A DNA stretch of 63,536 nt, the filler included, from Pelomyxa schiedti (taxonomy: Eukaryota; Protista; Evosea), in assembly GCA_020536535.1 (NCBI GenBank). It is 8 parts of 8 records of this genome, joined end to end, with 100 filler letters (N's around TTAATTAATTAA, not from the genome) between each part and the next. Parts side by side here need not be neighbours in the genome. Positions count along the whole stretch, not along the records: positions 1 to 5,025 come from JAHLWZ010001530.1; positions 5,126 to 16,816 come from JAHLWZ010001234.1; positions 16,917 to 27,389 come from JAHLWZ010001265.1; positions 27,490 to 33,897 come from JAHLWZ010001421.1; positions 33,998 to 51,618 come from JAHLWZ010001128.1; positions 51,719 to 58,327 come from JAHLWZ010001408.1; positions 58,428 to 60,163 come from JAHLWZ010002299.1; positions 60,264 to 63,536 come from JAHLWZ010001777.1. One strand, 5' to 3'. Of this stretch, positions 334-62,441 are shown piece after piece. The notes below the pieces were generated by a model. The model searched no databases. It was not told the DNA's origin and was given only the letters and a program-made list of their open reading frames with translations. Both the position numbers and the translations under genes were made by a program. Within the stretch, counting starts at the first letter, position 1. Each line of letters begins with the position of its first letter.

Positions 334-1605
334 ATGATGCTGAACGCACAGCGCGCACGCGAACAGGTCCTCGCACTGGTGATGGCATCCCACAATCGGT
401 GCGGTGCGTCGAGCCCCGCCCGCCACTTGGTGCGTGCGCTGCCGGACCTCGCCACGTCGCCATTGTGGGACTGGTGCCTCGGCCCCGACTCTGAGGTCGT
501 GTTCGGCCTGCTTGTCTCGACGCCCGAGTTCCACTCGAGCCACTGCTACTACACCTTCGGGGTGTCATCTACCCTTATGAGCGTGACCAGGGACATCGGG
601 TCAGTCGGGGGCAGGAGCCTGTGGAAGGGGAAGCAAACGGCGCCGAGCCACCTCACGCTGGCCGTCGACCCGGGCCACCTTGTGGTCACACAGTTTACCG
701 GGTACGGCAGGACCGGCTGGGCGTTCTCGCTGCTCGACGTGGTCACTCAGGAGCACAGGCTTCTGCTCAGCGAGAGAGTGACGCAATCGAGTCCACGGGT
801 TTATGCCAATCGCAAGTGGTTCCTGAGGTACCAGATAGAGGGGTCATTGGTCATTGTCAATTTGCAACAGCAGCAACAACCCCAACATGTGGAAATCAGC
901 GACATTCTGCGGTGTGACAAAGTCTTCCGTGGAGAGGTGATTACCTTCTTGGGAATCAGCATCAGTAATTATGTACCAGATGAAGCTGTGCTGTTGTATA
1001 ATGTGGGATTTGCGCGGGATCTGTTCCTTCTTTTGGTTGATGTCAGCAATACACACTCAACTGGTAATCTTTCTGTGCTGAGCTTGACTAAAGTCCTGTT
1101 GGATCGTTGCCCTGACACCTGTTATGGCATCTCATCGTGCCTTCTCATGAAGAAAGCCAATGGTGCCCGCGTTTTTATGTGCCCCTTTTTGGGTGCGCGT
1201 AGTTACACTGTGTTTGAAGTTGCAGAACGCGTGGGCACTGTCAAGCTTGTTTCCAGCAACAACATAGAGGGCTTGTCACAGCTGAGCACTTCTTTGTTTT
1301 GCACCTTGAAGGCTGATTATCACAATATCGAAATCTGGGACTGCAACAACATTGCCACTTGCAGTGATCGTGATGGGCAAGCAACACCACTGAGGGTTAT
1401 CAGCCTCTCACCTGTTGAACCTGATACTCTCCTTTTTGTGGAGGGAGCATCAGGTTTCCTCTTTCACAAACACGGAACCATGCTGTCCTGGCTGTCCTCC
1501 TCTGTGGATTTGAAAGACTCCACTGGCTTCCACATTTGCACCATCACTTTCCCCTCAAAACCTCAAAATATCACTGTGACCTCCTCCTCAAAGATCAACC
1601 TTTGA
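334..1605 (+). CDS. Intronless RCG/SPAR-motif family protein (member 1), function unknown
   Basis: Open ORF of 427 aa, first ATG at 334. N-terminal AREQVLALVMASHNRCGASSPARHL..LWDW; C-terminal LSQLSTSLF..EIWDCNN..PLRVI..SGFLF shared with other members in the window. Confidence 0.85.
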   Translation: MMLNAQRAREQVLALVMASHNRCGASSPARHLVRALPDLATSPLWDWCLGPDSEVVFGLLVSTPEFHSSHCYYTFGVSSTLMSVTRDIGSVGGRSLWKGKQTAPSHLTLAVDPGHLVVTQFTGYGRTGWAFSLLDVVTQEHRLLLSERVTQSSPRVYANRKWFLRYQIEGSLVIVNLQQQQQPQHVEISDILRCDKVFRGEVITFLGISISNYVPDEAVLLYNVGFARDLFLLLVDVSNTHSTGNLSVLSLTKVLLDRCPDTCYGISSCLLMKKANGARVFMCPFLGARSYTVFEVAERVGTVKLVSSNNIEGLSQLSTSLFCTLKADYHNIEIWDCNNIATCSDRDGQATPLRVISLSPVEPDTLLFVEGASGFLFHKHGTMLSWLSSSVDLKDSTGFHICTITFPSKPQNITVTSSSKINL

Positions 1606-1701
1606 ACCAATGCAAAAAAAGGATCAAACAGAAATGTAAGCATCTTCATTGTTGAAACAACTTGCTATGTTGTGCCGCTGATCTTTTTCGCACACGAGGA
1701 G

Positions 1702-2959
1702 ATGAACATGCTCCACGGTCAGCACGCACGTGAACAGATTCTGGCGTTGGTGATGGCGTCCCACAATCGGTGCGGCGCGTCGAGCCCCGCGCGCCACTTC
1801 GTTTCCCTCCAGCAGCCACCGGGCGCCACGTCGACGTCGCCATTGTGGGACTGGTGCCTCGGCCCCGACTCTGAGGTCGTGTTTGGCCTGCTCCTTTCCG
1901 GGCCGGGCTTCGACTCGAGCCACTGCTACTACACATTCGGCGTGTCGTCGGCACTGATGAGCGTGCCCGCGGTCACTCGGCGGCAACAGGAGCCTGTGGA
2001 AGGGGCGCCGAAACGCACCGAGCCAACTCACGCTGCCCGTCGATCCTAGTCACCTGCTGGTGGACGAAAATGACCGGGAACAAGAAGGCATTTGAGTTCT
2101 CGCTGCTGGGACGTGGCGACAGGCTTCTGCTCGGCGAGAGAGTGACCGAGTCTAGCCCACGGGTTTATGCCAATCGCAAGTGGTTCCTGAGGTACCAGAT
2201 AGATGGGTCATTGGGCATTGTCAATTTGCTGCCACTCCTGCAACAACAGCAGCTGCAACGGCATCAGCATGTTGAAGTCGGCGGAGTTCTTTGCTGTGAC
2301 AAAGTCTTCTGGGGAAAGGCGATTACCTTCTGGGGAATCAGCATCAGCAACTATGTACCAGATGAAGCCGTGGTGATGCTTTTTGTGGGAGTTTCACAGC
2401 CATTCCTACTTCTGGTAGATGTCAGCAAGACACACTCAACTGGTAAACTTTCTGTGTTGAGTGTTACTCAAGTTCTGTTGAAAGGCATACCATGTTACGG
2501 TCTCTCATCGTGCCTTCTCATGAAGAAAATAAATGGTGAGCGTGCTTTTATCTGCTCTTTTCTTGGTGTGGGTTCTTCCACTGTGTTTGAAGTCACAGGT
2601 GTTGGCACCTGCAAGCTTATTTCCAGCAACAATGCGGAGTGCTTGTCACAGCTGAGCACTTTCTTGATTTGTCTCTTGAAGGCAGATTATCGCACTGTTG
2701 AAATCTGGGACTGCAACAACACAATTGCAGTTGCTTGCAGTGACAATGGTGAAGCCACTGAGGGTTATTAGCATCAGCAACCTGGCTGTTTTGGAGCCCA
2801 ATTCTCTCCTGAGTTTTATTTGTGGAGAATCAGGTTTCCTCTTTCACCAACAGAGATCCAGCACGCGAGCCTCTGTGGAATTGCAAGACTGGTCATTTCC
2901 ACATTTGCACAATCACTTTCCCCTCAGAACCTGGAAATATCACTGTGACCTCCTCCTGA
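1702..2959 (+). pseudogene. Frameshifted tandem duplicate of member 1 (member 2)
   Basis: Collinear DNA similarity to 334-1605. The reading frame is broken near 1975, 2085, 2750 and ~2890 (ORF pieces 1672-2049, 2070-2771, 2698-). Confidence 0.8.
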
Positions 2960-3072
2960 CAGTTCCCCAAACGAGCGAGGCCATACAACAAAAACACGAC
3001 GTTCGGCAGAACGAAACACAGCCCTCCCGAAGTTTTTTGATGGGTTTTCCAAGGAAGAAGCCAACAGTGTTC

Positions 3073-4263
3073 TCACATAAACGCAATCACGTCAAAAAAC
3101 CCAATTTCAGCCGGAACATGGATCACACCAACATTGATGCCGGTGGATGTAGAAACCACCTCAACTCTGCCATCATCTTCATCATCTGCAACGTGTGTGG
3201 CCCCTTTGTTGTTGAGCTTCTGGAAGATAAACACTGGGCTCGCGGCGAGACCTGAGAAACCTGGGCTTCGTTCTATGACTCTGAGTGGCAGTGTCAGGTT
3301 GTTGCAATCCCAGATGTCAATGGGACCACCGCCCAGCCTCGTTGTTGAAAACAGGGAAGAACTCAGCTGTGATACGCTCTCGATTCCATGGGCAATTGGT
3401 GTCATTGTGCCGGTGGTCTCTAGGACTTCACAGAGATCGGCAGAATGCGTTGAGATAACGAGATGGACAAACAAAGCGCGCTGTCCAGTGGACTTCTTCA
3501 TTAATACACACGCTGCAATCTCACCTTCACAACCCCGACACGTTGTGCAGCTCAAAACCACAAGCTTCTTGGTTGTGTATGACTTCTCAACATCAATCAC
3601 TCTAAGGACCTGGCGCCCGCAATCATACAGAACCAGCACCGCCTCATCAGGAATCCTCATGCTTAAGGAAAGTGCGTAACAATACACTGAGGCTCCCTCG
3701 CGTTCCACAGCCACTTCCACCATGCTGCTGCATTCATCCATCGTGCTAGCAATTGTCAGCATGGATTGGTCATCGTAGTGCAGCCACCACTTCTCATTTC
3801 CGCAGTGCTCTGAAGAGTCACGGAACCGCCTGATCAGCAACAGCTTCTTCTCCAGAGTCACCGCGTTCACAAGTGAGTATCTCCGCTCTTGCTCTGTCAG
3901 AACCACTTTGTATGGACCGAGGGGAACTGGCACTGTGACCCTCGTGTGGTATGGCCAGCACGCGTGCAGCTTGAACTCCCTTGTGACTCCCATAAGTGCG
4001 CACGAAATGCCCACGGTGAAGTAGCACAGCCTCGCAAAACGGGGCACCTCGAGGAAAATAGACAGGACGACCTCGGAGTCTGGGCCGAGGCACCAGTCCC
4101 ACAATGGCGAGGACGACGTGGCGAGGAGGGCACGCACCAAGTGGCGCGCTGGGCTCGATGCGCCGCACCGATTGTGGGACGCCATCGCCAACGCCAGGAC
4201 CTGCTGTCGTGCACACGGGCACCCTGTAAAATCTCCTGTTATCATCCACTCATTGCCCGCCAT
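3073..4263 (-). CDS. Intronless RCG/SPAR-motif family protein (member 3)
   Basis: ARQQVLALAMASHNRCGASSPARHLVRALL..LWDWCLGPDSEVV; PDEAVL; VSQLSSSLF..DIWDCNN..PLRVI. Start ATG at 4263 or 4245. Confidence 0.85.
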   Translation of the reverse strand: MAGNEWMITGDFTGCPCARQQVLALAMASHNRCGASSPARHLVRALLATSSSPLWDWCLGPDSEVVLSIFLEVPRFARLCYFTVGISCALMGVTREFKLHACWPYHTRVTVPVPLGPYKVVLTEQERRYSLVNAVTLEKKLLLIRRFRDSSEHCGNEKWWLHYDDQSMLTIASTMDECSSMVEVAVEREGASVYCYALSLSMRIPDEAVLVLYDCGRQVLRVIDVEKSYTTKKLVVLSCTTCRGCEGEIAACVLMKKSTGQRALFVHLVISTHSADLCEVLETTGTMTPIAHGIESVSQLSSSLFSTTRLGGGPIDIWDCNNLTLPLRVIERSPGFSGLAASPVFIFQKLNNKGATHVADDEDDGRVEVVSTSTGINVGVIHVPAEIGFFDVIAFM

Positions 4264-4357
4264 CAAAGATGGGTTCCCTTTGTTTGTTAGGTGTTGCTTA
4301 AGCCCAGATTCTTCCGGTGAATCCCTTTTTCGGGAAGTCATCACTTCCACACAAAGT

Positions 4358-4420
4358 AGCGTGCGGACCTCTACGCACCCCACAGATTGTGGGGCGCCAT
4401 CATCAATGCCAGCATTGTTC
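4358..4420 (-). pseudogene. Decayed remnant of the family N-terminal motif
   Basis: Minus strand reads gaacaa-tg-ctggcattgatgatggcgccccacaatctgtggggtgcgtagaggtccgcacgc, i.e. EQ.LALMMAPHNLWGA*RSAR. It aligns codon by codon to EQILALVMASHNRCGASSPAR at 1732-1795. Confidence 0.65.
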
Positions 4421-4930
4421 TCCTGGCAATCGCCACACAGGAAGAAAACAAAAAAAGGATCCCGTAATTCAGTTTGGGAGATTCGATGGTAATGCCTTCA
4501 GTCTGATTGTGAGGCCTAACTTTCGGTTGGTTGGGAGTGCACAAAGTGCCTTCACTTCATCGCAAACTTTTCTAAACATCGTTAGTTAATGGCAAGTAGA
4601 CTATACCGACAGCAGGAGTACATCGTGATGTGATGCGTCAGCATTTCATCGCCATCGAGGCCACCCTCTAGACGCAATGTCCTGAGAGTGGCCTCAACAA
4701 ACCCTCCCGCCCTGTCCCACAATGGTGTCACCCTGCAAAGGGTGACGTTGGAGTAGGACTGGGGCACTTTTCAAAACAAAAACCCTGTGAAGCACGCGAC
4801 CACAACGACCAACCACTTTTTTTTTCCCTTGCTCTGTCTGCACTGAGAGTTTTGGTAATAATTCCCGATGTATCCTCAACAATTAAACAAGAAAAAGTGT
4901 TCCCAAAAACAAACAAAATTGCGTCATTTG

Positions 4931-5492
4931 TTATTTAAACAGTACAAAGCAGAGATGACTTGCGTACACACAGTGTTGGCTGTGGACTTGCTCTGCTTGT
5001 GTGATGTTGATGCTATTTACAGAGGNNNNNNNNNNNNNNNNNNNNNNNNNNNNNNNNNNNNNNNNNNNNTTAATTAATTAANNNNNNNNNNNNNNNNNNN
5101 NNNNNNNNNNNNNNNNNNNNNNNNNTACCGCACCCAAAATCAAGCACCCTAGCGGGGCCATCACCACCCCAATCCGCGCGCCCCAGCGCCCCCGCCCGGT
5201 ACACCCCCACCCCCACCCCTGTCCCCATCCGCGTCCCTCTCCCTTCCCCTTCCCCTTCCCCGTCATCCACCCCGTGGCCGTGGCCGTGGCCGCCGGTGGG
5301 CGGGGGCGTAGATAGCTGCTGGCTGAGCAGGGACCGCTTGAGTTCCACGATGGCAGGGGCGTGGCCGCTGGCCATCAGGGCCATGGGCCACACGCGGTGG
5401 GCGTCGCACACCCCTTGGTTGACGTGGTACTGTGTCTCGGGATTGGTCGTGGTGCAATCGACTGTGGTTGTTGCCGTTGTGGCGGTGCTCAT
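4931..5492 (-). CDS. Class I SAM-dependent methyltransferase, interrupted by assembly gap 5026-5125
   Basis: ATG at 5492; the ORF reaches motif I 'RVLDFGCG' at the gap edge. A plausible C-terminus (..YASHLCFVLFK*) lies at 4931-5025 across the gap, but the linkage is unproven. Confidence 0.65.
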
Positions 5493-15083: not shown

Positions 15084-16490
15084 TTACAAGGGGTACATTG
15101 TGAGGGATTGTCGCTTGAGTTGATTATTGAGGGTAATTTGGAGAAGGGGCTGTGATGGTCGCGCGCCGAAAATATCTGTGACCTGCAGCAACGAGGGATG
15201 TTTATGAAGTGTATTGTGGGTGTGCTCTTTGGGAGAAACTAACAGGAGCCCAGAGGAACAGGAAAATCGGGCGCAGTGGTGTGTGTCAATCTTACACAGG
15301 GCCTTGGGGCTTCTGTGTGAGAAATCATAGATTGTGACTGAATGGTTGGTTGTCCTTTCAACAGACACGCTGCGCTCGTCGAGAATTCGCACATAAACGG
15401 CATCAGGAAACAGCTGTTCCTCTGTGGTTGCACAATGAAGATTCCTGTGAAAGTCGAGACCAGTGTAGGTTATAAATAGTTTGTTGCATTGGAAAAGGAA
15501 ATCTTCTGGCCTAGAAATGGGTACGGGCAGAAAGAAATCCGGGACACTGTGGGGTAAACTGATGAATGCAGCCTCTGAATAACACTTCGAGATATCAATT
15601 TGTTCAAAGGCCCAGGCTTCAGTACTCCTGTACATCACTGATACTTCAGCTCCAGGAGGGATTTGTGACTGCAGTATTGAAGTAAACTTCCACTGGCTTC
15701 CATATTCAAGAAGGTCTGCTCTTAGTGGTACAATAACACTGGGCTCCAGCAGTTCCCCGTGTTTTATTTTCCAAATTTCCAAGCACCTCTTCCTCTCATT
15801 TACTGCAACCATCCAATGGTCATTACAAAGTACAAAGTAACCACTTTTATGGTATATAGTTGACAACACCTCACGATCGCGAGTGTCATACACGAGAAGA
15901 GCATGATCCCTGTCCCTCCTCAAGATGGCACTGGTTCTCCCTATCCATCCGATTGGTGTGCATCCATCCTTTTCCTTAGAGACATCAGCCCGGCCAGACT
16001 CCCAGCACCTCCCTTCGTACAACACAGTACTCCAAGCGGAACAACAAGTTCTTGGGAAACACACATTGTTGAGCACAATTGATTCCAATGAAGCCACACC
16101 ACCAGTGTGTGACACTCCGATTCCAAACACCATCAAGAACCCATAAGTGAGTCTGTCGGGATCGCTGCCCATGCGGCCACCCCAAGGCAGCCGGGCCCTG
16201 CGCCGCCTCCTGCCTTTTTTTGGGTCTCTCCAGCCCCCAGAGTCCCTCAGTCTCGTGACGACTTCGAGGCACACCTGCCTGCAGGGGCACATCACCCAGG
16301 GCCGGCCGAGCAGGGCCTGCGAGACCCACGGTGGCAAGACGCGGGCGGGGCTGTGGCACCCGCAGCGGGGAACAACGGAGGCGAGGCTGAGGGCGCAGAA
16401 CTGGGCTCGGGCGTCGATGACACGCACGACTTCGAACAGAGGTGACGAAGACGGCAGAGGCTCACACTGATATCGTCTTCGGGCAAGCAT
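15084..16490 (-). CDS. Intronless RCG/SPAR-motif family protein (member 4)
   Basis: DARAQFCALSLASVVPRCGCHSPARVLPPWVSQALLGRPWV; single open ORF. Confidence 0.85.
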   Translation of the reverse strand: MLARRRYQCEPLPSSSPLFEVVRVIDARAQFCALSLASVVPRCGCHSPARVLPPWVSQALLGRPWVMCPCRQVCLEVVTRLRDSGGWRDPKKGRRRRRARLPWGGRMGSDPDRLTYGFLMVFGIGVSHTGGVASLESIVLNNVCFPRTCCSAWSTVLYEGRCWESGRADVSKEKDGCTPIGWIGRTSAILRRDRDHALLVYDTRDREVLSTIYHKSGYFVLCNDHWMVAVNERKRCLEIWKIKHGELLEPSVIVPLRADLLEYGSQWKFTSILQSQIPPGAEVSVMYRSTEAWAFEQIDISKCYSEAAFISLPHSVPDFFLPVPISRPEDFLFQCNKLFITYTGLDFHRNLHCATTEEQLFPDAVYVRILDERSVSVERTTNHSVTIYDFSHRSPKALCKIDTHHCARFSCSSGLLLVSPKEHTHNTLHKHPSLLQVTDIFGARPSQPLLQITLNNQLKRQSLTMYPL

Positions 16491-16816: not shown

Positions 16817-16916
16817 NNNNNNNNNNNNNNNNNNNNNNNNNNNNNNNNNNNNNNNNNNNNTTAATTAATTAANNNNNNNNNNNNNNNNNNNNNNNNNNNN
16901 NNNNNNNNNNNNNNNN

Positions 16917-23843: not shown

Positions 23844-26682
23844 ATGCCAAGGGTGAACAAAGTGCAACCAGAGCAACCAAATGAGAGTGGTTTGGTCATG
23901 CTCGCCGTCAATACCATTCAGTGTGGTGCTCATTTTGACTTCAGTGTGCATTTCGATATTTCTGTCTCCCCCTTACCCTTTTGTACCGTGGACTTACCAA
24001 CTCTTTTTTTCCTCTTAGATCGTGCTGGTCGCCACACCAAGCAGCATTGTGTGGGCGACGTCGTATCAGAAGGCTGATTCCAGCATTGACGCAATTACAG
24101 AAACTCTGGTTGAGTCACTATCGAAAAACGTCCATGATATTGTTGAGGATATTGTGAAAGAGGCAGATGCAAACCTGGCTGCTGAGGTGTTTTATGTTTT
24201 TCTTAAAATTCCTCTTTCCTCTGACTGTTTGGTTGTGGAACAAAAAAGGTCCAGTGGGTGCGATTCAGGAACATTGACATGAATTCATACCCGCAGTGGG
24301 CAAGTACTCTGAGGCCAAGATATGTTCACTTTGCAGTAACTTCATCGTGTGTTCTTTCCCAACCCTAATGTCACATTCTCACTTTTCAAACAGAATAGCT
24401 GCCATTTCCCTCCGTTCCCCTAACATAACACTCATATGCACTGGCCGATTTGGGGCCACTTCTGTACGTGTCGCTCATTCATACCACTCACAATTCCAGT
24501 TGACTCACATGTTAAACTCAAAGGCAACATGTGGCCGAAAGACCAACGCCACGGACGGGCTGACATATTATGAGGTTGATGCAGTCACCAACAAAGAAGT
24601 GAAGAAGTCGAACCAAGGCGCCTCCGCAACATACTCCTCATACGCCAAGCTTGTCACCGATGGAGTTTACCAAGACATGCTTAGAGGTGTTCCAAACTGG
24701 GGAAAGGTGATTCTCACTCAAACACGAAACTTGACTGGGCCCAATGTTACTGTCTAGGTTGTCACCGTTCAGAACCCCTCCGTTGCGATCTCGTCTTATC
24801 ACCCCTGTATGTTCAAACTTCTTACCAATGAGATTGATTGATGTACCCAGATATGAGTTCGAGTGGAGAGCTTCTCGGAGTAGTTGTTGGCACGCGAACA
24901 GTGCAGTCCTTGTCGGAGGATCTAGTGGAGGTCTGAACTGGAGTTTGTGGAAATCAGACAATTAACATAAACTAGATTGCAGCGGGTAAGAACGTGATTT
25001 ACGTAACCACGCAAGATGGATACCTCCTTGGTGCTTCCAACGGAAGTGTTATCAGCGTAAACGAGTCCAGCACAAGTGTGTCTACCCTTTTACAAACAAA
25101 TTAATTTTTGACGTTTCGCACAACGCAGCACGGCGAGCGAGTGTGTCACTCGCGAATAACAGTGACAGCCCTGTTGTTGCCGCTATTGCACGCGAAATCG
25201 ATGCGCATGGTGGCTGCACCAATCTCTCAGAATCTATGCAGCTCCGCGTGCAGTTGAACGGCAGCACATACACCGTCGGGATTGCACGTGCGTGTGCATC
25301 TCAGCATTTGATGAACCCCTAACAGACTCAAAATCGGCTAATTCTTCCATTATATATATATATATTTCAGATATCGCGGCAGGGCAGCGAGTGTGGTGTG
25401 GATTCAGTGCCATTCCAAGTTCGGAAATGACCAAAACAATTGAGGAGGGCAAAAGAGTCAGCATCGTTGTTTTCGCCTGCAGCGTGGTGGCCAGTCTAAT
25501 TTTGGCAGTTATTTTGGCATTCTTGCTTATTCTTCCTCTGAGGCGTCTCACAAAAGGTGTGTATACTCCACAACATTGTAATTTCACTTTCCCATTCTGA
25601 CGCTTCACAGATATGCAGAACCTGTCGAAACTGAGGTTCAAACCACTTGGCCGAACCGTGAGTGTATTCACTGAGTTGCACTCAATGCTCCGTGATTATA
25701 TGGGCATGAAGCAAGGAATCCACGCCTTTAGCAGGTGCGTCATTCAACTTATATGATAAAAAGTTAAGGTTTTCTCACCTATCTTTTTCCACAGGTACGT
25801 CTCTGCTGGAGTCGTTAGGCAACTCCTTGATGGTGATCAGAAAATGTCATCACTTTATCTTGAGAGGCACTCTGTCACTGTGTGTTCTGGGCTCTCCATA
25901 TTTGACACTCACTTAGGGAAAAGGTTGTTTTCATGGATGTTGTTGGGTTCACCAGTTTGTGTGAGGTGTGTTTCCAGTCATCACTCAAGTGCGCTCATTC
26001 ATAACAGAAATTATCACCAAGCACGTTGGTTACCCTCCTGAGTTTGTTCATGCAGCGGATGTGCCAAGTTCTCATTTCTGAAGGTGCAACTCTTGACAAG
26101 TTCATTGGGGTGTGTTATCCCACTCCACTTGACAGCAACTCACTGAGCTATGCCACCAGGACTGCATCATGTCATTTTGGAATCACCCGCACGGATGTGA
26201 AGATCACACATTCAAGGCAATCAACGCGGTTCTGAGGTGCTACGAGGAACTCGAAAAGCTCAACAAAGAGAATGCCGCGAAGGTTTCTTCTCCTTTCCCA
26301 TACAGGAATTGGGTATCATCAATGTCCCCAGGGACTTCCGGAGCTTCAATTCCGAGCCGGAATCAACACCGGCCGGGTTTTAGTTGGCAACTTTGGCTCC
26401 CCAGAGAGGTTTGATTACACAATCCTCGGCGATGCAGTCAATGTTGCCGGTATGGAGCTTCCATCCCAACCTTCCACACATCACCAACATTCCACAGCGC
26501 GGTTGGAACAACTCAACAAGGAGCTCGGCACCAAGATGCTCATATCAGAGAGTGCTTACAACTTAGTTGCCGGCCGGATCAAAGTACAACCCAAGGGTGA
26601 GGTTGCAATCCGTGGAAGGGAGGCAAAGCTCGAGGTATACGAAGTGATTCCCTCTTCCACGGTACCTGTGTCATCATCCTGA
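23844..26682 (+). CDS. Membrane class III adenylyl/guanylyl cyclase (TM-extracellular domain-TM-catalytic), copy 1, multi-exon
   Basis: [72 protein letters not shown]; second TM VSIVVFACSVVASLILAVILAFLLILPL. Confidence 0.92.
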
Positions 26683-33700: not shown

Positions 33701-33897
33701 ATGTTTCGCGCACCACGAGTAGTACATCAACCAAGCAACGTTGGGAGTGACCGACCCAATGTTTGGACCATCGAATCGCACACTGTTTTTAAGGAACAAA
33801 TGTTGGCGTTTATGATGTCGTCGCACGCTCGGTGTGGCGCGAGCAGCGCGGCGTCTGCCCTCACATCCCACAATGCGCCCCTCGCGAGGTTGTGGGT
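33701..33897 (+). CDS. RCG/SPAR-motif family member 6, 5' fragment (gap-truncated)
   Basis: FKEQMLAFMMSSHARCGASSAASAL..LARLW. Confidence 0.75.
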
Positions 33898-38000: not shown

Positions 38001-39664
38001 AGTAGGAATCTTGAGAATAACACACAAAAGTTCCCTGACTTGCTCCAGATAGCCAAAAAGGTATCCCTTCAAGTTAACGCATATTGATTGCTTTCTTCAA
38101 GGCAGTAAAAGGAAATGTCAATACATATGTCATAGATTGTGAGGCTGTGGGTTGGGATATTGAAACCAAAAAGCTCCTTCCATTTCAAATTCTTAGTACT
38201 CGTGCCCGCAAAGTAGACCCTTTCTTATATTGTAGGGTTAAGTTTAACATTCGGCAGGCTGTTGACCTGAAGGATGTGAAGATTAGAGCCTGCATATTTG
38301 CTTTTGATATTCTGTACCTCAATGGGCAGGTAGATATTATTCTCCAATGCGACAACTCACTTGATAAGTCTCTTTTAAACAAACCACTCTGTGAACGACG
38401 GGAAATCCTCCATTCTTCGTTCAATCCTTCAGAGGGAGAGTTTCAATTTGCTACCTACAAAAATATTCAAGATACAGCGGACATTCAGCCCTTTTTTGAA
38501 GGTAAAAATCCCTTAAACTTCTTCAAGTAATAAGAAAACAGAGGCAATAAGAAATCAATGCGAAGGACTGATGGTGAAAACGTTGGTCGCTGAATCACAT
38601 TATGAACCCGACAGAAGGTCCTACAATTGGCTCAAGGTGCCTTCATAAACAAAAACTTTTACAACATTAAATATTAACCCAAACGCAGTTGAAAAAAGAC
38701 TACATGGAGGGCATGACAGACTCTGTTGACCTTGTGCCAATTGCAGCATTCTATGGATTGGGAAAGAGAACTGGAGTGTAAGTTCTTTTTTCTCGCAATG
38801 CTTTCTAACTTCTATGCAGTTACGGGGCCTATCTTCTAGCTTGCTATGACCCCGATACAGAACAATTTCAGGCAATGACAAAGGTTTCCTGCACACTCAC
38901 TGCCTTCCCCATTTGTCACCATCACACAGGTTGCTACTGGATTAAGTGATGAAGCGCTCGATACACATCACGAGTTCTTCAAGCAACATACTCTCACTGG
39001 ACCCAAGCCTTACTACAGCGTTGCTCAAGCAGCATCCACAAAGCAACCCGATGTGTGGCTTGATGCGGTACAAGTCTGGGAAGTGAAGGGAGCTGACTTG
39101 ACCATTTCCCCAGCCTACTCNNNNNNNNNNNNNNNNNNNNNNNNNNNNNNNNNNNNNNNNNNNNNNNNNNNNNNNNNNNNNNNNNNNNNNNNNNNNNNNN
39201 NNNNNNNNNNNNNNNNNNNNGACCCAAGCCTTACTACAGCGTTGCTCAAGCAGCATCCACAAAGCAACCCGATGTGTGGCTTGATGCGGTACAAGTCTGG
39301 GAAGTGAAGGGAGCTGACTTGACCATTTCCCCAGCCTACTCAGCCGCCCGCGGATTGGTATTCATTCCCCGCAAAAATTACTCACTCACATTTTCTTCGC
39401 TTCCAGGTGGACGATTCCAAGGGAGTCAGCCTCCGCTTCCCTAGGTTCATCCGCGTAAGGACTGATAAATCCCCTGAGGATGCCACTTCAGCGGAACAAG
39501 TAATTCTATTCTCCACCAAACCGCACCCAAAACCCCTCTCTTACACATGAATCGCGCACCCAACAACCACAACGGCTCAACTGCGCACATTCCAGGTTGC
39601 GGAAATGTATTCAAAACAAGCCCTGTGTATTGCTAACATGAACCGGCACCAGCCTGGCCACTAA
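35079..39664 (+). CDS. LIG1: DNA ligase I (ATP-dependent), multi-exon
   Basis: N-terminal MKQRTL..FFKP PIP-like start; PMLAQP, motif [55 protein letters not shown]. Confidence 0.96.
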
Positions 39665-48268: not shown

Positions 48269-51200
48269 CTAGCCATTTGTTGTGGGAGCCGCCACCACAA
48301 CCTCATACACATCAACCTTTGCTTGTCTGCCACGGATTGACACTTGGCCCATTGGGTGCGTTGGTATTCTGGCACCAACCATGTTGAACACACCCTCTGA
48401 TATCAGAATCCTTGTGTTCAGCTCCCGGTTCAGCTGCTCAAGCCTCGCTGTGGTTGGGTGAGTAGTTGAAACACAGTGTATTATAATACTTGGAATGTAT
48501 TTTAATGGCAATGAAGAGAGAACATTAAAACACACCGGCAACATTGACAGTGTCACCAAGGACAGTGTAATCAAACCTCTCTGGTGACCCAAAGTTCCCA
48601 ACAAGAACTCGCCCGGTGTTGATTCCGGCTCGAAAGTGAACTTCCGGGAGTCCCTGTGTGATATTCAGGTTTCTTGCGGAACGAATGGGAAGGGAACCTT
48701 TGATGCATTCTCTTTGTTGAGCTTTTCCAATTCCTCATAACACCTCAGGACTGCCTTGACTGCCTTGAATGCGTGGTCTTCACACGCCTGGGGATGGTTC
48801 CAGAATGACATGATGCAATCCTGTCACCGGCGTCAGTCAAACGAAAATAGAAGAGAGTCCAGCCACACCCCGATGAACTTGTCAAGTGTTGCACCTTCGG
48901 AAATGAGAACCTGGCACATCCGTTGCATGAACAAGCTCAGGAGTGTCACAAGTGTGTTCGGTGCAAGTTTCTGTTGTTGGTGTTGTCATCGCACATCAAC
49001 AAGGAAGAATAATAAGAGAAAACACACCTCACAGAGACTGGTGAAACCAACAACATCCATGAAAACAACCTTGGGTGAAAATGAGGGAAACCACTGGTTT
49101 GGGGTGGTAAACGAACCGTGACAGTGTGCCTCTCGAGGTAAAGTGATGACATCTTGTGCTCCCCATCGAGGAGCTGTCGAACGACTCCAGCCGAGACATA
49201 CCTGTGACAATTAAGAATTACATAATACGAGTGGTTGTGCATACCTGCTGAAGGCATGAATTCCTTGTTTCATGGCCATGTAATCGCGGAGCATGGAATG
49301 CAGCTCCGTGAAAATACTGACAGTTCTCCCAAGTGGCTTGAACCTCAGTTGTGACAGGTTCCGCATATCTGTGAAACGTGTGAGTTGAGGTAAAACTGCC
49401 GGTAATGTTACTGTAAGTAACACCTTTTGTGAGATGCTTCAGAGGAAGAACGAGGAAAAGAGCCAGAATCATAGCTATAACGAGACTCACTACCAGACTG
49501 CAAACGAACACAATGATGCTGACTCTCTTTCCTTCCTCAATCGTTTCTGTCATTTCTGAGGATGGAATTGCTGCCACTCCACACCACACGCGTTGTCCGG
49601 CTGCGATATCTATCCCAATATGTCACAAGTGAGGGAAAATTGTTCCACGTACGAGCAATTGCGACAGTGTATGTGCTCCCATTCACCTTCACATTAAATT
49701 GTGTCTTCTCCGTGACATTGGCACACCCTCCCAAGAGTTCAACCTCTCGTGCGATGGCCGCCACAACAGGGTTGTTGCTATTATTGGCGAGAACAGTGCT
49801 GGCAAGGTAGGCTGTTAAATGGAAGTCAGTCAGGATTCATTGGTGATTTAATGGACAAACTCGTTGCATTGTATGTAACCACGCTTCCGTTGGAGGAGCC
49901 GAGAAGAGTGCCATCGTTTGTGGTAACATAAATCACGTTCTGTCCTGCTGCTATCTGTTTTCGCTATGAGTTCGGCCATTTGTAAACATTTATGTCACTT
50001 ACATCTCGAAGGTCATTGGAGAGAGATGTGACTGCTTTTGCACCTTGAATGACTCCCAGAAGTTCCCCACTCGAGCTCATATCTAGAGTAGATTAAGACA
50101 ATAAGGAAAGAAGGGAGTCTCTTGGTGGTACACATACAGGGATGATATGACGACATGACAACAAGACTCATCAAAACCGTTACAACCTGAATACAAGATA
50201 TCAGGACAAAAAATAAATTGAGCGGGACAAAGTACCCTTCCCCAGTTTGGAACCCCACGCAACATGTCATCATACACACCGTCGATCATCACCTTAGAGT
50301 ATGACACATACGGAGTTGTAGCAATTGGGGCTGTCCTTTTCACTTCCGCATTTGTCTCCGCATCAACATTATAAAAGTTGAGACCATCACTTGCATTGGT
50401 CTTTCGAGCACAGTTGGACTTGTCGGGAGAAAAATTAGTTAAAAGAATTAAAAACTATTTAAATTAGTTATTACTATGTTCAATAAAAAGAATAATAAGA
50501 CCATACGATATTTGCCCCCAAGCGGCCGGTGCATATGATTGTGAGGTTCGGTGACCGCAGGTAAATTGAGTGTATCCTACAAAGATATTAATGTTAATAT
50601 TGCCATGGACTTTAGGAGAACAATACACACGGTGAATTGATTGCAAAGTGAACATATCTTGGCCTCAATTCACTGGCCCACTGGGCCCACGAATTCATGT
50701 CAATGTGCCTGTATCGCAACCATTCAACCTAATTGTCAAACTTAGCCATAAACTCGAGATAATTTGGGCCATACTTCAGCGGCGAGGCTAGCGTCTACCT
50801 CGTTCACGAATCCATCAACGATGTCGTGAACATTTTTCTCGAGTGACTCCACAAGGCTGTTCGATACGGCGTTTATGCTGGAATCAGCTCGATTGTGGGA
50901 TGTCACCCACACAGTGGTGCATGGTGCCACAACCAGCACAATCTAAAAAGAAGAGATGAGCAAAATAAGTTTTTGATTGAATGGGTTCGTAGACGAATAA
51001 GGAGAAACACACACACAGACAGAGCCACACATACCGAACAGACAACGAGAACAACACTGAAAGGAACAGATATCCGCGAGCAACAGGGGGCCGTGGACCT
51101 CGTTCCGTTGTTGTTGTTGTGGCGATTGTGGGATGACGACCCCCCTCCATTCCTCCCACCCCTGAGTCCGCTGATCCTCCTGGCCTCCCTCATGCTCGCC

Positions 51201-51718: not shown

Positions 51719-51954
51719 GCGGGAAGGTAGTCGGCGGGGGTGATGAGCCACAGCGAGACGCGATTGTGGGAGGGGACAACGACCCACTCGCGGCCGAGGA
51801 GGGAAAGCAGCGAAGGCGTGAGCGAAGAAACGGGGGACGTGGAGCCGCATCGCCCCACAATGACAGCAGCACCCAGCGAAACAAACTGACTGCGTGCATC
51901 GATGGTCACCGAAACTGTTGGTGCTCGGGGCGTCTCGTTAACAGAGAGCAGCAT
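51719..51954 (-). CDS. RCG/SPAR-motif family member 7, 5' fragment (gap-truncated)
   Basis: IDARSQFVSLGAAVIVGRCGSTSPVSSLTPSLLSLLGREWVV. Confidence 0.78.
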
Positions 51955-52002
51955 AGAACGAAAAGTAAAAGAAAAATAAGAAAAGGAAAGAAATAAAACT
52001 TA

Positions 52003-52075
52003 AGGCTCCAGTGGGAATCGAACCCGCGATCTTCGCTTTACGAGAGCGACGCTTTGCCAACTAAGCCATGAAGCC
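52003..52075 (-). tRNA. trnT: tRNA-Thr, anticodon CGT
   Basis: GGCTTCA-TG-GCTT AGTTGGCA AAGC-G-TCGCT CTCGTAA AGCGA-AGATC-GCGGG TTCGATT CCCAC-TGGAGCC-T: a full cloverleaf with one C-A mismatch in the T stem and a downstream T run. Confidence 0.93.
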
Positions 52076-52150
52076 TTCACAGAAGCCCAAAGGCTTCTCT
52101 TCGCATCAGGATCTTCGATTCCGGGCAGAGCCCGAGATTTTTTTTTGGCG

Positions 52151-53503
52151 TCAAGGCAAAGCCCAAACACCATCAAGGCCCCGCATTTCAGGGAGTGGAA
52201 GGAGCAGAACAACAACACCAGAGGATGCCTCAACCACCTTCAATTGGTGTCCAGCAGCAGTGAAAATGAACCCTGACTCGGCTGCAGCAAGACAAAAGTT
52301 GTGATTTGCAGGCATGTAAACACCAGGCACACACATCACCAGTGCTGTTGTGCCACCACTGCAATCCCACATTTTGCAAAGGGAGTCACCACAATCAAAG
52401 CGGACACAGAACCGTGAGTCACTCACACGATACAGACTGCGTGGTCTCTCACACCCTTCAATCAACAGCCTCGTTACACCAGCTTCATTCACTTCCACAA
52501 TTTCTGGAAGAGTACTGCGGCGTCCCATCACATGTGGCTTCCCATGCACAATGAAACAGTGGGACCCACCAATTCTCTTCATTGACAGTGCTTCAGCCAC
52601 CACATAGCCTGGTGGAAACAGGGCCCTCGTTTCACTCGCAATCACCAGGCTCTTGGATTTGTGGGCTCTCTCAACATCAAACAAAACGAACCTGGCTGCA
52701 GTGCTGCCATACTTCTTTACCACCACAGCCAGCATTTCACTTGAATCATTTCTCGAAAATGACAGCACAGCCACCTCGTACTCACCAACATTGAACTCCA
52801 CAGAGATCGGAACCACAACCCTGGAATCCCGAGGCTCAACTTCGGCGAGGCTCATGATGACAACACCAACCATTCCCCCGCACCTCTCCCTCACCAGGGA
52901 TTCATCATCACCCTGAGGCGCCTCGCACTCCACAACGCCCGCCACGAACCACTTCCAGTTCACATCGCACGCTCCCGGCGAGTTCCTCGCCTTCCACAGA
53001 ACCACCTCGGGGTTGGCTCCTGTTTCCTCATGGCACCTTCCAATCTGCCACCTGCAACCCCTGTCGTACCAGTTCAGCTTGTCCACCCACCGAGAGGCAC
53101 TCACCCACCACGTCTTCGCCGCCCACGCGGCCCCGATTCCGCCCCGCTCGTGCCCCCCGGGCTCCCTCGTGAGCGCCAGCAGCACGGGCGACACCGAGAA
53201 CGCGTGTGGCCGGCTGTGGGGGGGTCCCCTGCTGGTCATGCACGCCTCGCCGAGCACGAAGTTTGTGGCGGTCTCGGTGACGAAGGACCAGAGGAGCCTG
53301 GGGACGAGGGAGCCGCCGTGTGCGAGGGCGTCGGCGGCGAGCGGGGCCAGCCGGGAGCCGCACCGTGGGTGGGCCCCGAGAAGAAGCGCCAACAGTTGAT
53401 CCTTGGCTCGAATCCACGCAGCAACACCACCACAACCACATCTCAACGTGGATGGTGATGCAGGGGTCGACGGCCGGCCAGTGTTGTTGGTGCCTGAGAA
53501 CAT
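52151..53503 (-). CDS. Intronless RCG/SPAR-motif family protein (member 8)
   Basis: RAKDQLLALLLGAHPRCGSRLAPL..LLWSFV; LYRVSDSRFC..KMWDCSG..AESGFIF..LKVVEASSG. Confidence 0.87.
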   Translation of the reverse strand: MFSGTNNTGRPSTPASPSTLRCGCGGVAAWIRAKDQLLALLLGAHPRCGSRLAPLAADALAHGGSLVPRLLWSFVTETATNFVLGEACMTSRGPPHSRPHAFSVSPVLLALTREPGGHERGGIGAAWAAKTWWVSASRWVDKLNWYDRGCRWQIGRCHEETGANPEVVLWKARNSPGACDVNWKWFVAGVVECEAPQGDDESLVRERCGGMVGVVIMSLAEVEPRDSRVVVPISVEFNVGEYEVAVLSFSRNDSSEMLAVVVKKYGSTAARFVLFDVERAHKSKSLVIASETRALFPPGYVVAEALSMKRIGGSHCFIVHGKPHVMGRRSTLPEIVEVNEAGVTRLLIEGCERPRSLYRVSDSRFCVRFDCGDSLCKMWDCSGGTTALVMCVPGVYMPANHNFCLAAAESGFIFTAAGHQLKVVEASSGVVVLLLPLPEMRGLDGVWALP

Positions 53504-54037: not shown

Positions 54038-55300
54038 ATGGTCGAAGCGACGCGTGCGACGATTCGTGGCGTTGTTGACGCGAGATCGCAGTTCGTCGCG
54101 TTCGCGTGTTCGTCGAACGAAAGGTGCGGCCGGGGCAGCGCGGCCAAATCGGTGTCCCATAACCACGCCCTGTGCGCCCAGTTTGGCCGCGACTGGGTCG
54201 TCGGCTGCTGCCGCCAAGTCGGCAGCACAATCACGCTGTCCGCGTCCCCATCAGCGGACGATCCCGCGACAACAGCAGAACGAGACGAATGGTGCTTATG
54301 GGATGTTCGCGCCCACCTGTTCATGGGACTGAGTGCCACACTCGGCGTGGTGTGGTGCAAGTGCCTGGATCAGCCGGCGTGCGCGCTGCTGGACTGCGAG
54401 GTCGACACCATCCAGGGCTGCGTGGGCGATGACAGGTTCGTGGCGGTGTCGAGCTCGGGTGCTGCCAACGTGATCGACAGCGAGGGGAACGTGGTTGCGC
54501 CTCTGGATGGCGGGTCGGAGATGGCGCCGTTTGGCCTGTGGGTGAACAACTGCAAGTGGCTGGTGAGGATCGAGGACGGCGGAGAGGATGAGGAAGGCTC
54601 GACCAACCTGAAGATATGGAGGATGCGCGATGGTGCGCCATTGAGGGATGGCGAGCGCTCTTGTGTGCCACTGAGTGTGGATTGTGCTGGGTTCTCTCAA
54701 TTTGAGCCTTTTGGTGACTGCTTGGTGCTTGCTGGCTTCAGTGGCGAAGAAGAAGATGAAGATGACGCACAGCAGCCTGGAATACTTTACTCCATTGATC
54801 TTGAGAAGTTCAATACAACAGCAGCGGGCAGGAATGCTGCTGTTCTACAACATCCCGTTGCTTTTGGATTGGTCTGGGCTTCACCCAACACAATCCTCAC
54901 ACTGCACGGTGACTCAACTAAGGGCTACAAAGTTTACAACACTGTGACTGGTCAACTACACGCATTCCCTTCCTCAAAGTACCAAGAGATGTACTCTGTG
55001 TCATCTTGTGGGGTTCCTGCACACCTTGTTTCCTCTTTAAGAGGGTCTGAAAAGTGCGAGGTTTACCATTGCTCTGAATTGACGATACCCTTGTGTCAGT
55101 ATCAACACACAGCAGCAACAGGCAAGATTGAAGTATGTTCGTCATCCAACGCCATCTATGCTGTGCCAACATCATCAAACACAGCAAAACCTCCTTTACA
55201 GCAGCAAGAGCAACATCTCACAACACTCTACATTCATGATTCCACCACAGGAATACCATTGACCACTCTAGAAGTAATATTGATGCACTACACCCTGTAG
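54038..55300 (+). CDS. Intronless RCG/SPAR-motif family protein (member 9)
   Basis: VDARSQFVAFACSSNERCGRGSAAKSV..FGRDWVV; open 421-aa ORF. Confidence 0.85.
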   Translation: MVEATRATIRGVVDARSQFVAFACSSNERCGRGSAAKSVSHNHALCAQFGRDWVVGCCRQVGSTITLSASPSADDPATTAERDEWCLWDVRAHLFMGLSATLGVVWCKCLDQPACALLDCEVDTIQGCVGDDRFVAVSSSGAANVIDSEGNVVAPLDGGSEMAPFGLWVNNCKWLVRIEDGGEDEEGSTNLKIWRMRDGAPLRDGERSCVPLSVDCAGFSQFEPFGDCLVLAGFSGEEEDEDDAQQPGILYSIDLEKFNTTAAGRNAAVLQHPVAFGLVWASPNTILTLHGDSTKGYKVYNTVTGQLHAFPSSKYQEMYSVSSCGVPAHLVSSLRGSEKCEVYHCSELTIPLCQYQHTAATGKIEVCSSSNAIYAVPTSSNTAKPPLQQQEQHLTTLYIHDSTTGIPLTTLEVILMHYTL

Positions 55301-58250: not shown

Positions 58251-58296
58251 CGCTTCGAGGCTTTCTAACTCATAGTACCCAGCAAAAAATTAAGTG

Positions 58297-58327
58297 AGGC
58301 TCCAGTGGGAATCGAACCCGCGATCTT
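58297..58327 (-). tRNA. trnT: Second tRNA-Thr(CGT) copy, 3' 31 nt only (rest in gap)
   Basis: aggctccagtgggaatcgaacccgcgatctt is identical to 52003-52033. Confidence 0.75.
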
Positions 58328-58427
58328 NNNNNNNNNNNNNNNNNNNNNNNNNNNNNNNNNNNNNNNNNNNNTTAATTAATTAANNNNNNNNNNNNNNNNN
58401 NNNNNNNNNNNNNNNNNNNNNNNNNNN

Positions 58428-60163: not shown

Positions 60164-60263
60164 NNNNNNNNNNNNNNNNNNNNNNNNNNNNNNNNNNNNN
60201 NNNNNNNTTAATTAATTAANNNNNNNNNNNNNNNNNNNNNNNNNNNNNNNNNNNNNNNNNNNN

Positions 60264-60923: not shown

Positions 60924-60982
60924 GACGGTGATGATGAAATGATCGATGATGCAACAAGAAAAGCAATGATCGATGATGCAAC

Positions 60983-61173
60983 AAACAAAGCAAAAGGGAA
61001 CAAATGAGTAAAAAGAAAAATTTAATATATAAAAGGAAAATGTGCTGGCGCTGACTTCTTTCATTGAAAGTGTCGGTGATGTGATGTTTGAAGATACTTC
61101 AATGTGGTCACAAGGCTAAGTTCATCATTTCCAATTTCATTTTCAGAGAGCAAGAGAACAAGTGAACGGGTTG
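60983..61173 (+). repeat. Left arm of ~190-bp imperfect inverted repeat (partner 62783-62967)
   Basis: tttaatatataaaaggaaaatgtg..ctgacttctttcattgaaagtg..gatacttcaatgtggtcacaaggctaagttcatcattt..gcaagagaacaagtgaacgggttg occurs as its reverse complement at 62783-62967. Confidence 0.9.
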
Positions 61174-61199
61174 TCAGTTCCTGTGTTGTTGCCGGTGGT

Positions 61200-62441
61200 G
61201 GTTCTCCTTCGCAAGCAGTGTTTCCAAGGAGGTGTGACATCCTCCGGGGGCCACACAAACCACCCACAAGGAAGGGGACCGTACAGTCGAGGTTACAACG
61301 CGCGACGCAGCCGACTCGTCACTCATGCAACAGTTTAATGAGGCGGCTGAAGGAGATGATGACGTCGCGGAGGATGACGAGCCAACGGAGGAGGTAGAAC
61401 GCGTGCACGACACAAGATGCGTGGAGGAGGACTTAGCACGCGTTCTACCTCCTCCGTTGGCTCGTCGTCCTCTGATGGCACCTCAAGCCCCACACCTCCA
61501 ATACATTAACATGGGGGCTACTACGCCTGCAAGGCGTGAACATCGATCAAGTCTACTCTGGAACTGCTGTGCACTGGTCAAGATGGTAGATGTGTGTTAT
61601 TTTCCCATTTTCCTTGGAGTCCACACCACACTCACTACACTGAGGTGAAGAAACAAGATAAAGAAGTTGCTTCGGTCACCTTTCCACATCTGGAGAGGGT
61701 GCCACCAGTGCAGCCTCATCGTCGTTTATCATGGCACACGCACGTCACATAGCCTCTCAAACCAACCACACAGAAGTCCTCCTTTCCACCACCTCCACAA
61801 CGGACTCTCTCCAGCCCCACCACGCATTCGCAGGATCACAATGCCGCCCAGAAGAGGATGCCAGAGAACCGCCCACTTGGTGCCCCTGCACACCCGCGTC
61901 TCTGGGCAATAGCCCAGCTGCGAGCTCATCGGAATCTCCGCCACGTTCCTCGCAACAGCCCCACCAGCCAGCAGATTCGCGATCGCAAGCGCGCTGCGGC
62001 TGCCGGAACTGGCCCGGTTGGTCTCGCAGTCATTCACCACGGCGCCGCCGTGCCCAAACCACACTATCGCGTTGAAGTATGCCCTCGACTCGCAGTCGTC
62101 GCCGCCGCCTGGCCCGCACCACGTCCCCCGCTCGACGACGCCCAAGGTGTGTGACACGCCGACGAACACGATGTGGTACGTGGTGGTGGTGGCGTTGGAT
62201 GCGACGGCGGGGCGGCGCTGGTGCTGGTGGCGGTGGTGGTGGTGGAGGAGTGACCCCTGATCACGGCCCTCCTGTCGACGTGCATCACCCACTTGGCTCC
62301 TATTTCGTCGGCGATGACAGCGGCAGGGAGCACCCTCGCTGGGCTGCGCGCCCCACAACGGCAATGCAGAGTGGCCACCGTGCTGGAAAGCAGGGCAACG
62401 AGTTGGTCGCGCGCAAGAAGTACAGCTGTAATCATCATCAT
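61200..62441 (-). pseudogene. Frameshifted RCG/SPAR-motif family member 11
   Basis: LARDQLVALLSSTVATLHCRCGARSPARVLPAAVIADEIGAKWVM, followed by a frameshift near 62190 and later stops; DEAALV remnant. Left boundary approximate. Confidence 0.75.
61376..61466. repeat. Perfect 31-bp inverted repeat with 29-nt spacer
   Basis: gacgagccaacggaggaggtagaacgcgtgc (61376-61406) and gcacgcgttctacctcctccgttggctcgtc (61436-61466). Confidence 0.95.

What the first reader, a model, noticed from the sequence alone, without database searches (positions are those of the whole stretch)
334..62441. Large, intronless, fast-turnover gene family with a conserved N-terminal 'RCG-x2-SPAR-x-L' module: candidate F-box-like adaptor repertoire
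Seen in sequence: 11 members in 63 kb (334+, 1702+, 4263-, 16490-, 27499+, 33701+, 51954-, 53503-, 54038+, 56721-, 62441-) plus remnants. All share AR-x-Q-(F/L/V)-x-A-L..(H/P)RCG-x2-SP(A/V)-x-x-L...(L/I)..W and, in most, a late 'L-x-x-S-x-S-x-F..E(I/V)WDC..PL-x-VI..SGF(L/I)F..L-x-V-x-(D/E)..(S/T)G' block around a highly variable beta-rich middle. Inference: segments such as SPARVLPAAVIADEIGAKWV and SPVSSLTPSLLSLLGREWV resemble the 'xxLPxE(I/L)LxxI' start of an F-box/BC-box helix. A constant adaptor box plus a variable propeller-like body, with birth-and-death evolution, is the architecture of cullin-RING substrate receptors. This could be a lineage-specific ubiquitin-based recognition system, for example for endosymbionts or viruses.
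Basis: partly seen in the sequence, partly recalled or inferred. Interest (0 to 1): 0.85.

Follow-up and report, generated by a model that had tools for sequence, protein, structure and literature searches.

The report
Huge propeller family, undescribed docking box
The amoeba Pelomyxa schiedti has hundreds of fast-changing genes for predicted beta-propeller proteins that start with one conserved small helical box, and a related box sits on ankyrin, WD40, RCC1, leucine-rich-repeat and actin proteins in environmental DNA, so it is likely an overlooked docking tag that would plug many different targets into a protein-destruction (ubiquitin ligase) machine.

Summary
Observation confirmed, with one correction: the window is 8 joined contigs, and the 11 members lie on 5 of them. 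The organism is Pelomyxa schiedti. A family profile finds 606 clusters at 50% identity; 20 of 20 sampled from the best 150 are P. schiedti. AlphaFold2 gives a beta-propeller body behind a 45-residue helical head (pLDDT 87.5; head alone 95). The head is more conserved than the body (41% against 23% identity). New here: the head is a variant of a wider 'HPRLG box'. 59 non-redundant metagenomic copies conserve positions outside the search pattern, 38 end their ORF, and partners include ankyrin, WD40, RCC1, LRR and actin. Its last helix aligns weakly, in register, with F-box helix 1; the Pelomyxa heads no longer do. F-box, BC-box and H-box consensuses are not met. Best reading: cullin-RING substrate receptors with a non-canonical box, most likely docking on Skp1. 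Any role against symbionts or viruses is unshown.

The parts
334..1605 (+). Complete member, 423 aa: head 8-49, predicted beta-propeller 51-420; modelled
   Evidence: N-part of NCBI model Pelo_17894; RNA contigs over 947-1642
343..492 (+). Head module of the first member (helix 8-18, R-C-G loop, short helix 30-35, helix 38-49)
1702..2965 (+). Frameshifted tandem copy (breaks near 1980-2070 and near 2745); likely pseudogene
3073..4263 (-). Complete member, 396 aa from 4263 (ORF opens at 4341)
4350..4433 (-). Decayed head remnant upstream of the 4263 gene
   Evidence: DNA 76-80% alike to three heads; weak profile match, E 0.26
15084..16490 (-). Complete member, 468 aa
27499..29394 (+). Complete member, 631 aa, with a 139-aa low-complexity leader before the head
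33701..33897 (+). Member cut by the contig end: head only
51719..51954 (-). Member cut by the contig end: head and first strands
52151..53503 (-). Complete member, 450 aa, divergent head
54038..55300 (+). Complete member, 420 aa
55378..56721 (-). Complete member, 447 aa, paralog of the 53503 gene (74% DNA identity)
61729..62441 (-). Frameshifted, truncated member (head and body in different frames); likely pseudogene
5026..5125 (.). First of 7 artificial contig linkers (others start at 16817, 27390, 33898, 51619, 58328, 60164)

Best explanation
These genes encode predicted beta-propeller proteins with a conserved helical N-terminal box, and they are likely substrate receptors of a cullin-RING ubiquitin ligase in which the box would dock on Skp1 (or a Skp1 paralog) while the variable propeller would bind targets for ubiquitination. 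Shown: family size, head-over-body conservation, pseudogenes, and a related HPRLG box on ankyrin, WD40, RCC1, LRR and actin proteins elsewhere. Predicted: the propeller fold and the self-folding head. Inferred: the box's last helix acts as F-box helix 1 and the helix before the H-x-R-[LC]-G loop stands in for the missing F-box helices. Untested: binding, ubiquitination and targets. I put about 0.65 on some cullin-RING receptor role and about 0.45 on Skp1 as the adaptor.
For: Architecture: propeller 51-420 (VIA Z 18.5, rmsd 3.6 over 286 residues to 8wt1_A, tied with other propellers) behind a head that folds alone (pLDDT 95.2, pTM 0.71). Constraint: identity 41% head against 23% body; pairwise dN/dS 0.12, 0.27, 0.35 in heads against 0.38, 0.47, 0.50 in bodies. 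Scale: 606 clusters at E<=1e-3, 426 at 1e-10. Modularity: 19 of 53 scanned metagenomic ORFs with the box have a Pfam match: 7 ankyrin (4 over the cut-off), 4 RCC1, 2 WD40, 2 LRR, 2 2OG-Fe(II) oxygenase (under the cut-off), 1 actin, 1 SUMO-like; 38 of 59 boxes end within 55 aa of the stop, as poxvirus ankyrin F-boxes do (PMC4353913, passages). Last helix: L-x-x-[DEP]-h-h-x-x-h in 28 of 59 boxes against 2.1% of background windows; it aligns in register with helix 1 of 7 giant-virus F-boxes, score 13.75 against a maximum of 8.99 in 40 column shuffles. Precedent: cowpox CP77 binds Skp1 with an F-box reduced to helix 1 (PMC4353913); trypanosome cullin E uses a Skp1 paralog with kelch proteins that lack F-box and BTB domains (PMC12816148, passages).
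Against: The Pelomyxa head profile does not align with F-boxes above shuffles (8.5 against a shuffle maximum of 11.6), and the box alignment has only 2.4% hhalign probability on a thin 7-sequence profile. The F-box proline is missing: 5 of 129 heads and 4 of 59 boxes, chance level. No Pfam family fits heads or boxes. The hydrophobic spacing that remains (81 of 129) fits any amphipathic helix. The language-model look-alike of the whole protein is DCAF17, a DDB1 partner. 34 of 53 box-bearing ORFs have no known partner domain. Ankyrin, WD40 and LRR domains are promiscuous, so their company does not identify the machine.
Confidence: 0.45

Rival explanations
1. The head is a helix-loop-helix that inserts into DDB1, making the family a giant set of DCAF-like receptors for a cullin-4 ligase.
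For: The top ESM Atlas feature matches of the whole protein are DCAF17 clusters (0.91, 192 of 256 features shared). DET1 complexes appear at Foldseek ranks 11 and 18. A helix ending in a glycine before a propeller is the DCAF layout (PMC9975947, passages).
Against: Atlas recognition was 1544, below the tool's 2300 mark, so the score is weak evidence. DET1 lies among generic propellers. The H-box pattern [LV]-x-x-R-x-[LIV]-G is in 0 of 120 heads and 0 of 59 boxes, and a [WY]DxR word is in only 8 of 91 single-unit proteins. Most non-Pelomyxa boxes are C-terminal on non-propeller proteins.
Confidence: 0.12
2. The head is a SOCS/VHL-like box that binds Elongin B/C and a cullin-2/5 ligase.
For: Three-helix size, and C-terminal position after ankyrin or WD40 repeats, as in SOCS-box proteins (recalled) and poxvirus ANK/BC proteins (PMC6232478, passages).
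Against: The BC pattern is in 18 of 120 heads, all at one offset in the proline-rich third segment, and in 6 of 59 boxes. The conserved first helix has no leucine-x3-small residue pair in BC register. LPxP is in 0 of 120 and 0 of 59.
Confidence: 0.08
3. The box docks on another constant partner outside the known cullin adaptors (a new adaptor, a HECT/RBR ligase, the proteasome, Cdc48 or a trafficking scaffold).
For: No sequence family fits the box. Its most conserved part, H-x-R-[LC]-G-x-x-S-P, has no counterpart in F-, BC- or H-boxes.
Against: The partner-domain set and the in-register last helix point to the F-box class.
Confidence: 0.22
4. In Pelomyxa the head is only a structural cap of the propeller, and the family grew by duplication or retroposition without a shared docking role.
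For: The head is confidently placed in the monomer model (pLDDT about 90 for residues 1-30). The Pelomyxa third helix has lost the F-box-like residues and gained tryptophans. Single-exon ORFs in an intron-rich genome and pseudogenes fit retro-duplication.
Against: The head folds alone, exists without a propeller on other proteins, and is more constrained than the body.
Confidence: 0.13

Closest known systems
F-box/propeller substrate receptors of SCF ligases (FBXW, F-box-kelch, plant F-box-FBA families)
   Same: Small N-terminal helical module plus beta-propeller; constant head, variable body; large family with pseudogenes. Weak body-only sequence hits to FBXW19, FBXW24, FBXW12 (E 0.005-0.05).
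   Different: No F-box Pfam match, no L-P-x-E start, no helices 2-3 after the candidate helix 1; body matches no Pfam propeller family above cut-off.
Poxvirus and Orientia ankyrin/PRANC (truncated F-box) proteins
   Same: Ankyrin repeats ending in a short box whose last helix resembles F-box helix 1; helix 1 alone can bind Skp1 (PMC4353913). The non-Pelomyxa boxes share this layout.
   Different: No PRANC match among 53 boxes; the conserved proline is mostly absent; in Pelomyxa the box is N-terminal on a propeller.
DCAF17 / DET1-type receptors of CUL4-DDB1
   Same: Helix-loop-helix before a non-canonical propeller; DCAF17 is the top language-model look-alike.
   Different: H-box spacing not met; no DCAF17 or Det1 family among the 25 listed of 49 Pfam families for 100 members.
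Lineage-specific cullin complexes of trypanosomes (TbCul-E with Skp1.2 and kelch proteins)
   Same: Propeller receptors without a recognisable F-box or BTB domain in a protist (PMC12816148).
   Different: Four proteins there against hundreds here; there the complex was isolated, here it is inferred.
Mimivirus BTB-WD40 proteins
   Same: Best structural matches in the viral library (TM 0.52): adaptor-binding domain plus propeller.
   Different: The match is to the propeller; the 45-residue head is too small for a BTB domain, and no BTB family was matched.

Membership tests
F-box protein (SCF) | F-box domain match (Pfam F-box families) | tested here: not met
   No F-box family for 26 heads or 53 boxes at E<=10
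F-box protein (SCF) | hydrophobic-Pro-x2-hydrophobic-x3-hydrophobic at helix 1 (consensus from PMC6232478) | tested here: not met
   5 of 129 heads, 4 of 59 boxes; shuffles give 4.6 and 1.9
F-box protein (SCF) | Profile similarity to F-box helix 1 | tested here: inconclusive
   Boxes 13.75 against shuffle maximum 8.99, probability 2.4%; Pelomyxa heads 8.5, within shuffles
F-box protein (SCF) | F-box three-helix fold | tested here: inconclusive
   Head is helix / short helix / helix; best Z 3.9, no F-box listed; a permuted order would not be seen
F-box protein (SCF) | Substrate-binding repeat or propeller domain joined to the box | tested here: met
   Predicted propeller; ankyrin, WD40, RCC1, LRR on related boxes
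F-box protein (SCF) | Binds Skp1 | not tested
BC/SOCS-box receptor (Elongin B/C) | [TSP]-L-x3-[CSA]-x3-hydrophobic on a conserved helix | tested here: not met
   18 of 120 heads, all at one offset in the third segment; 6 of 59 boxes
BC/SOCS-box receptor (Elongin B/C) | Binds Elongin C | not tested
DCAF (CUL4-DDB1) | H-box [LV]-x-x-R-x-[LIV]-G (from PMC9975947, which calls it poorly conserved) | tested here: not met
   0 of 120 heads, 0 of 59 boxes
DCAF (CUL4-DDB1) | Overall likeness to DCAF propellers | tested here: inconclusive
   DCAF17 0.91 with low recognition; DET1 among generic propellers
DCAF (CUL4-DDB1) | Binds DDB1 | not tested
   No Pfam match over cut-off for 10 window proteins; enzyme hits in long NCBI models lie outside the family unit

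The most novel reading that the evidence does not exclude
The HPRLG/HPRCG box is an unrecognised, widespread cullin-ligase docking module of microbial eukaryotes or their large viruses: a reordered F-box in which an upstream helix replaces helices 2-3, or a box for its own adaptor. Pelomyxa has amplified one box-propeller fusion to about 3% of its proteome as a fast-turnover recognition repertoire for policing symbionts, prey or viruses.
Probability: 0.35. Interest if true: 0.85.

Novelty: new variant of a known kind. Interest (0 to 1): 0.62.

Why it matters
Cullin-ligase receptor inventories in protists rest on F-box, BTB, SOCS and DWD profiles, and none of these detects this box. If it docks on a ligase, protist ubiquitin repertoires are undercounted: by hundreds of genes in P. 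schiedti alone (606 clusters against 19,876 predicted proteins, about 3% if all are Pelomyxa). The box gives a 45-residue, testable handle on many hypothetical proteins. It also offers a candidate recognition system in an amoeba that lives with three prokaryotic endosymbionts. The general design (constant box, variable propeller, birth and death) is known from plants and animals, so the new elements are the box and its scale in an anaerobic amoeba.

Tried and rejected
Whole genome: none held, so the member count comes from protein clusters, not from the assembly. Head fold searches: best VIA Z 3.9, no Foldseek match at E<=0.001; uninformative for 44 helical residues. ESM Atlas on the head alone: no usable hit. 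PDB sequence searches with head and box profiles: 0 and 2 chance hits. Word-index search with the head profile: 37 of 37 hits P. schiedti; it could not reach the R-L-G form. Viral contigs: no relative of P0102; motif scans gave 2, 1 and 0 loci, the three in non-coding frames; the one giant-virus bin searched had no box. Prokaryote genomes: 20 loci; 2 overlapping ones hold real boxes on one short MAG contig, and 0 of the 13 other translated hits show all four off-pattern features. The figure '102 of 114 metagenome hits score on the head profile' is not used as evidence, because chance pattern matches score too. A shared upstream mobile element: rejected, as the deep-coverage stretch at 1-336 is not upstream of the other members. 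One tandem cluster: rejected. Domain fusions in long NCBI models (kinase, E2, Macro, Sel1): not used; 34 of 46 long models join two or more units, and Pelo_17894 joins two separate genes of this window. Positive selection: not seen in four pairwise comparisons, which are too coarse for site tests. RNA run X4 does not cover most of the other two genes on contig 1; contigs cannot show absence. Organism of the metagenomic boxes: 9 of 10 looked up are called genes, none with an organism name. Literature: 'HPRLG' gave 2 unrelated papers; Pelomyxa + ubiquitin + Skp1 gave 0; searches listed nothing on this family. The library lacks most subscription journals, and no supplements were read.
Full report
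Observation. Seven members are complete ORFs of 396-631 aa, two are frameshifted, two are cut by contig ends, and one head remnant lies near 4350-4433. The window is not one locus: seven N44-TTAATTAATTAA-N44 linkers join 8 contigs, and members lie on 5. The first ORF is identical over 374 aa to Pelo_17894 of Pelomyxa schiedti. That genome has 19,876 predicted proteins and 7.43 introns per gene (PMC8887013, passages), so single-ORF genes stand out. NCBI models skip in-frame pieces of 39-90 nt in 4 of the 7 complete members. These pieces include conserved family residues, so I read them as mis-called introns (inference). RNA contigs cover 947-1642 of the first member without a joint; one of the two has 4 differences and may be a paralog, and DNA in the library is not excluded.

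Size and range of the family. A 14-sequence profile against 1.84 billion representatives gives 606 clusters at E<=1e-3, 426 at 1e-10 and 131 at 1e-30. Only the best 150 were shown; 20 of 20 sampled from them are P. schiedti, as are all hits of the three word-index searches. The 456 weaker hits were not seen and may include other organisms. If all are Pelomyxa the family is about 3% of the proteome; 34 of 46 long models hold two or more units, so the unit count may be higher. No Pfam family describes the unit.

Anatomy. AlphaFold2 on a 100-sequence alignment gives pLDDT 87.5, pTM 0.87: helices 8-18, 30-35 and 38-49, then an almost all-beta body. The body is a beta-propeller: VIA Z up to 18.6, with many unrelated propellers tied; Foldseek agrees. 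From the strand list I infer seven blades, closed by the last strand joining the first three; I could not inspect coordinates. A family head of 44 residues (Pelo_1171) folds alone with pLDDT 95.2 and has no clear fold match. The head is the most conserved part: 2.08 bits per column against 0.7-1.45 for body blocks, 41% against 23% mean identity, pairwise dN/dS 0.12-0.35 against 0.38-0.50 (the first blade of one pair gave 0.13). No comparison exceeded 1.

The head is a variant of a wider box. A DNA pattern for A-M-[GA]-x-H-P-R-[LC]-G-x-x-S-P, built from the heads and partly from my recall of similar protist motifs, gave 118 metagenome loci of about 170 estimated; 114 translated to the motif. 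After keeping the 102 that score on the head profile and removing near-duplicates, 59 remain. Positions outside the pattern are conserved: Ala at -2 in 52, Leu at +16 in 40, Asp/Glu at +19 in 32, Ile/Val at +24 in 37, and Leu rather than Cys in 58. All four off-pattern features are met in 35 of 59, against 0 of 13 chance hits from prokaryote genomes. A profile of these boxes alone finds three window members (E 5e-7 to 2e-4) and 68 of 163 Pelomyxa proteins; hhalign gives 97.8%. Both figures are partly circular through the pattern. 38 of 59 boxes end within 55 aa of the stop. Of 53 ORFs scanned, 19 have a Pfam match: ankyrin 7, RCC1 4, WD40 2, LRR 2, 2OG-Fe(II) oxygenase 2, actin 1, SUMO-like 1; 34 have none. 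The actin is of the eukaryotic kind. The source organisms are unnamed; protists or their large viruses are my inference. The same pattern found nothing in IMG/VR.

Which machine. The partner set and terminal position are those of cullin-ligase boxes. For Skp1: the box's last helix reads L-x-x-[DEP]-h-h-x-x-h in 28 of 59 against 2.1% background and aligns in register with helix 1 of 7 giant-virus F-boxes (13.75 against a shuffle maximum of 8.99, probability 2.4%). Poxvirus ankyrin proteins bind Skp1 with a truncated F-box, in one case helix 1 only (PMC4353913, passages). Trypanosomes pair a Skp1 paralog with kelch proteins lacking an F-box (PMC12816148, passages). Against: the Pelomyxa heads score within shuffles, the F-box proline pattern is at chance level in heads and boxes, and no F-box family matches. 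For DDB1: DCAF17 is the top language-model look-alike, with weak recognition, but the H-box pattern of PMC9975947 (passages) is in 0 of 120 heads. For Elongin C: the BC pattern of PMC6232478 (passages) is in 18 of 120, all at one offset in the third segment.

Papers. Passages read: PMC8887013, PMC9975947, PMC12816148, PMC11763709 (nothing used), PMC4353913, PMC9485057 (F-boxes in Dictyostelium are hard to predict), PMC6232478. All others were seen as search listings only; no supplements were read. Searches for the motif and for Pelomyxa ubiquitin ligases found nothing relevant; this library lacks most subscription journals. Earlier scan notes had nothing on this genome or sequence; one note on a giant-virus box is a parallel that I did not test.

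Verdict. The family is real, very large and undescribed in what I could search. It likely works like an F-box/propeller receptor repertoire, but it fails the F-box, BC-box and H-box sequence tests, so it is not filed under any of them. The more general result is the HPRLG box, of which the Pelomyxa head is a derived form. Cullin-ligase role about 0.65, Skp1 as the adaptor about 0.45; defence or symbiont control is a hypothesis without evidence here. Novelty: new variant of a known kind. Interest 0.62.

Noticed in passing
window 4530-4830 (+): Candidate abundant non-coding RNA: summed RNA contig depth up to about 19,000 against about 10 on the neighbouring gene, fold z-score -4.95 with 0 of 100 shuffles as stable, ends in a T run; no Rfam match. 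About 300 nt, the size of SRP or RNase P/MRP RNA (recalled, untested).
   Followed up: partly
window 1-336 and 4201-4368: DNA contig depth far above the flanks in two runs (up to about 13,000 and 1,200 against 10-100): a high-copy repeat at the contig start, not shared upstream of the other members.
   Followed up: partly
window 52002-52076 (-) and 58297-58327: tRNA-Thr(CGT) between two family members, and an identical 31-nt piece at the end of the same contig.
   Followed up: no
L020:112-1629 (-) and L028: HPRLG box N-terminal to a eukaryotic-type actin domain in one ORF; recalls the plant F-box-actin protein ARP8 (recalled).
   Followed up: partly
L147:994-2854 (+): Three tandem short genes ending in the box on a 7.6-kb contig of a bacterial MAG; probably misbinned eukaryotic or viral DNA (inference).
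   Followed up: partly
L006, L012, L018 and L010, L011, L016, L017: Skp1 genes on viral contigs: three intact ORFs and four that look interrupted by introns; bin G001 also holds 7 F-box matches.
   Followed up: partly
window 24001-26645 and 48300-50960: Two paralogous multi-exon genes on different contigs, 65-75% alike, with a nucleotide-cyclase-like motif in the ORF at 26272 (recalled, not scanned).
   Followed up: no
window 39000-39341: 121 identical bases on both sides of the 100-N gap: likely an assembly artefact.
   Followed up: no
family members, e.g. window 334-1605: Third-position GC falls from 0.62-0.82 in the 5' part to 0.42-0.59 in the 3' part in 6 of 7 complete members, unlike four neighbouring exons.
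   Followed up: no
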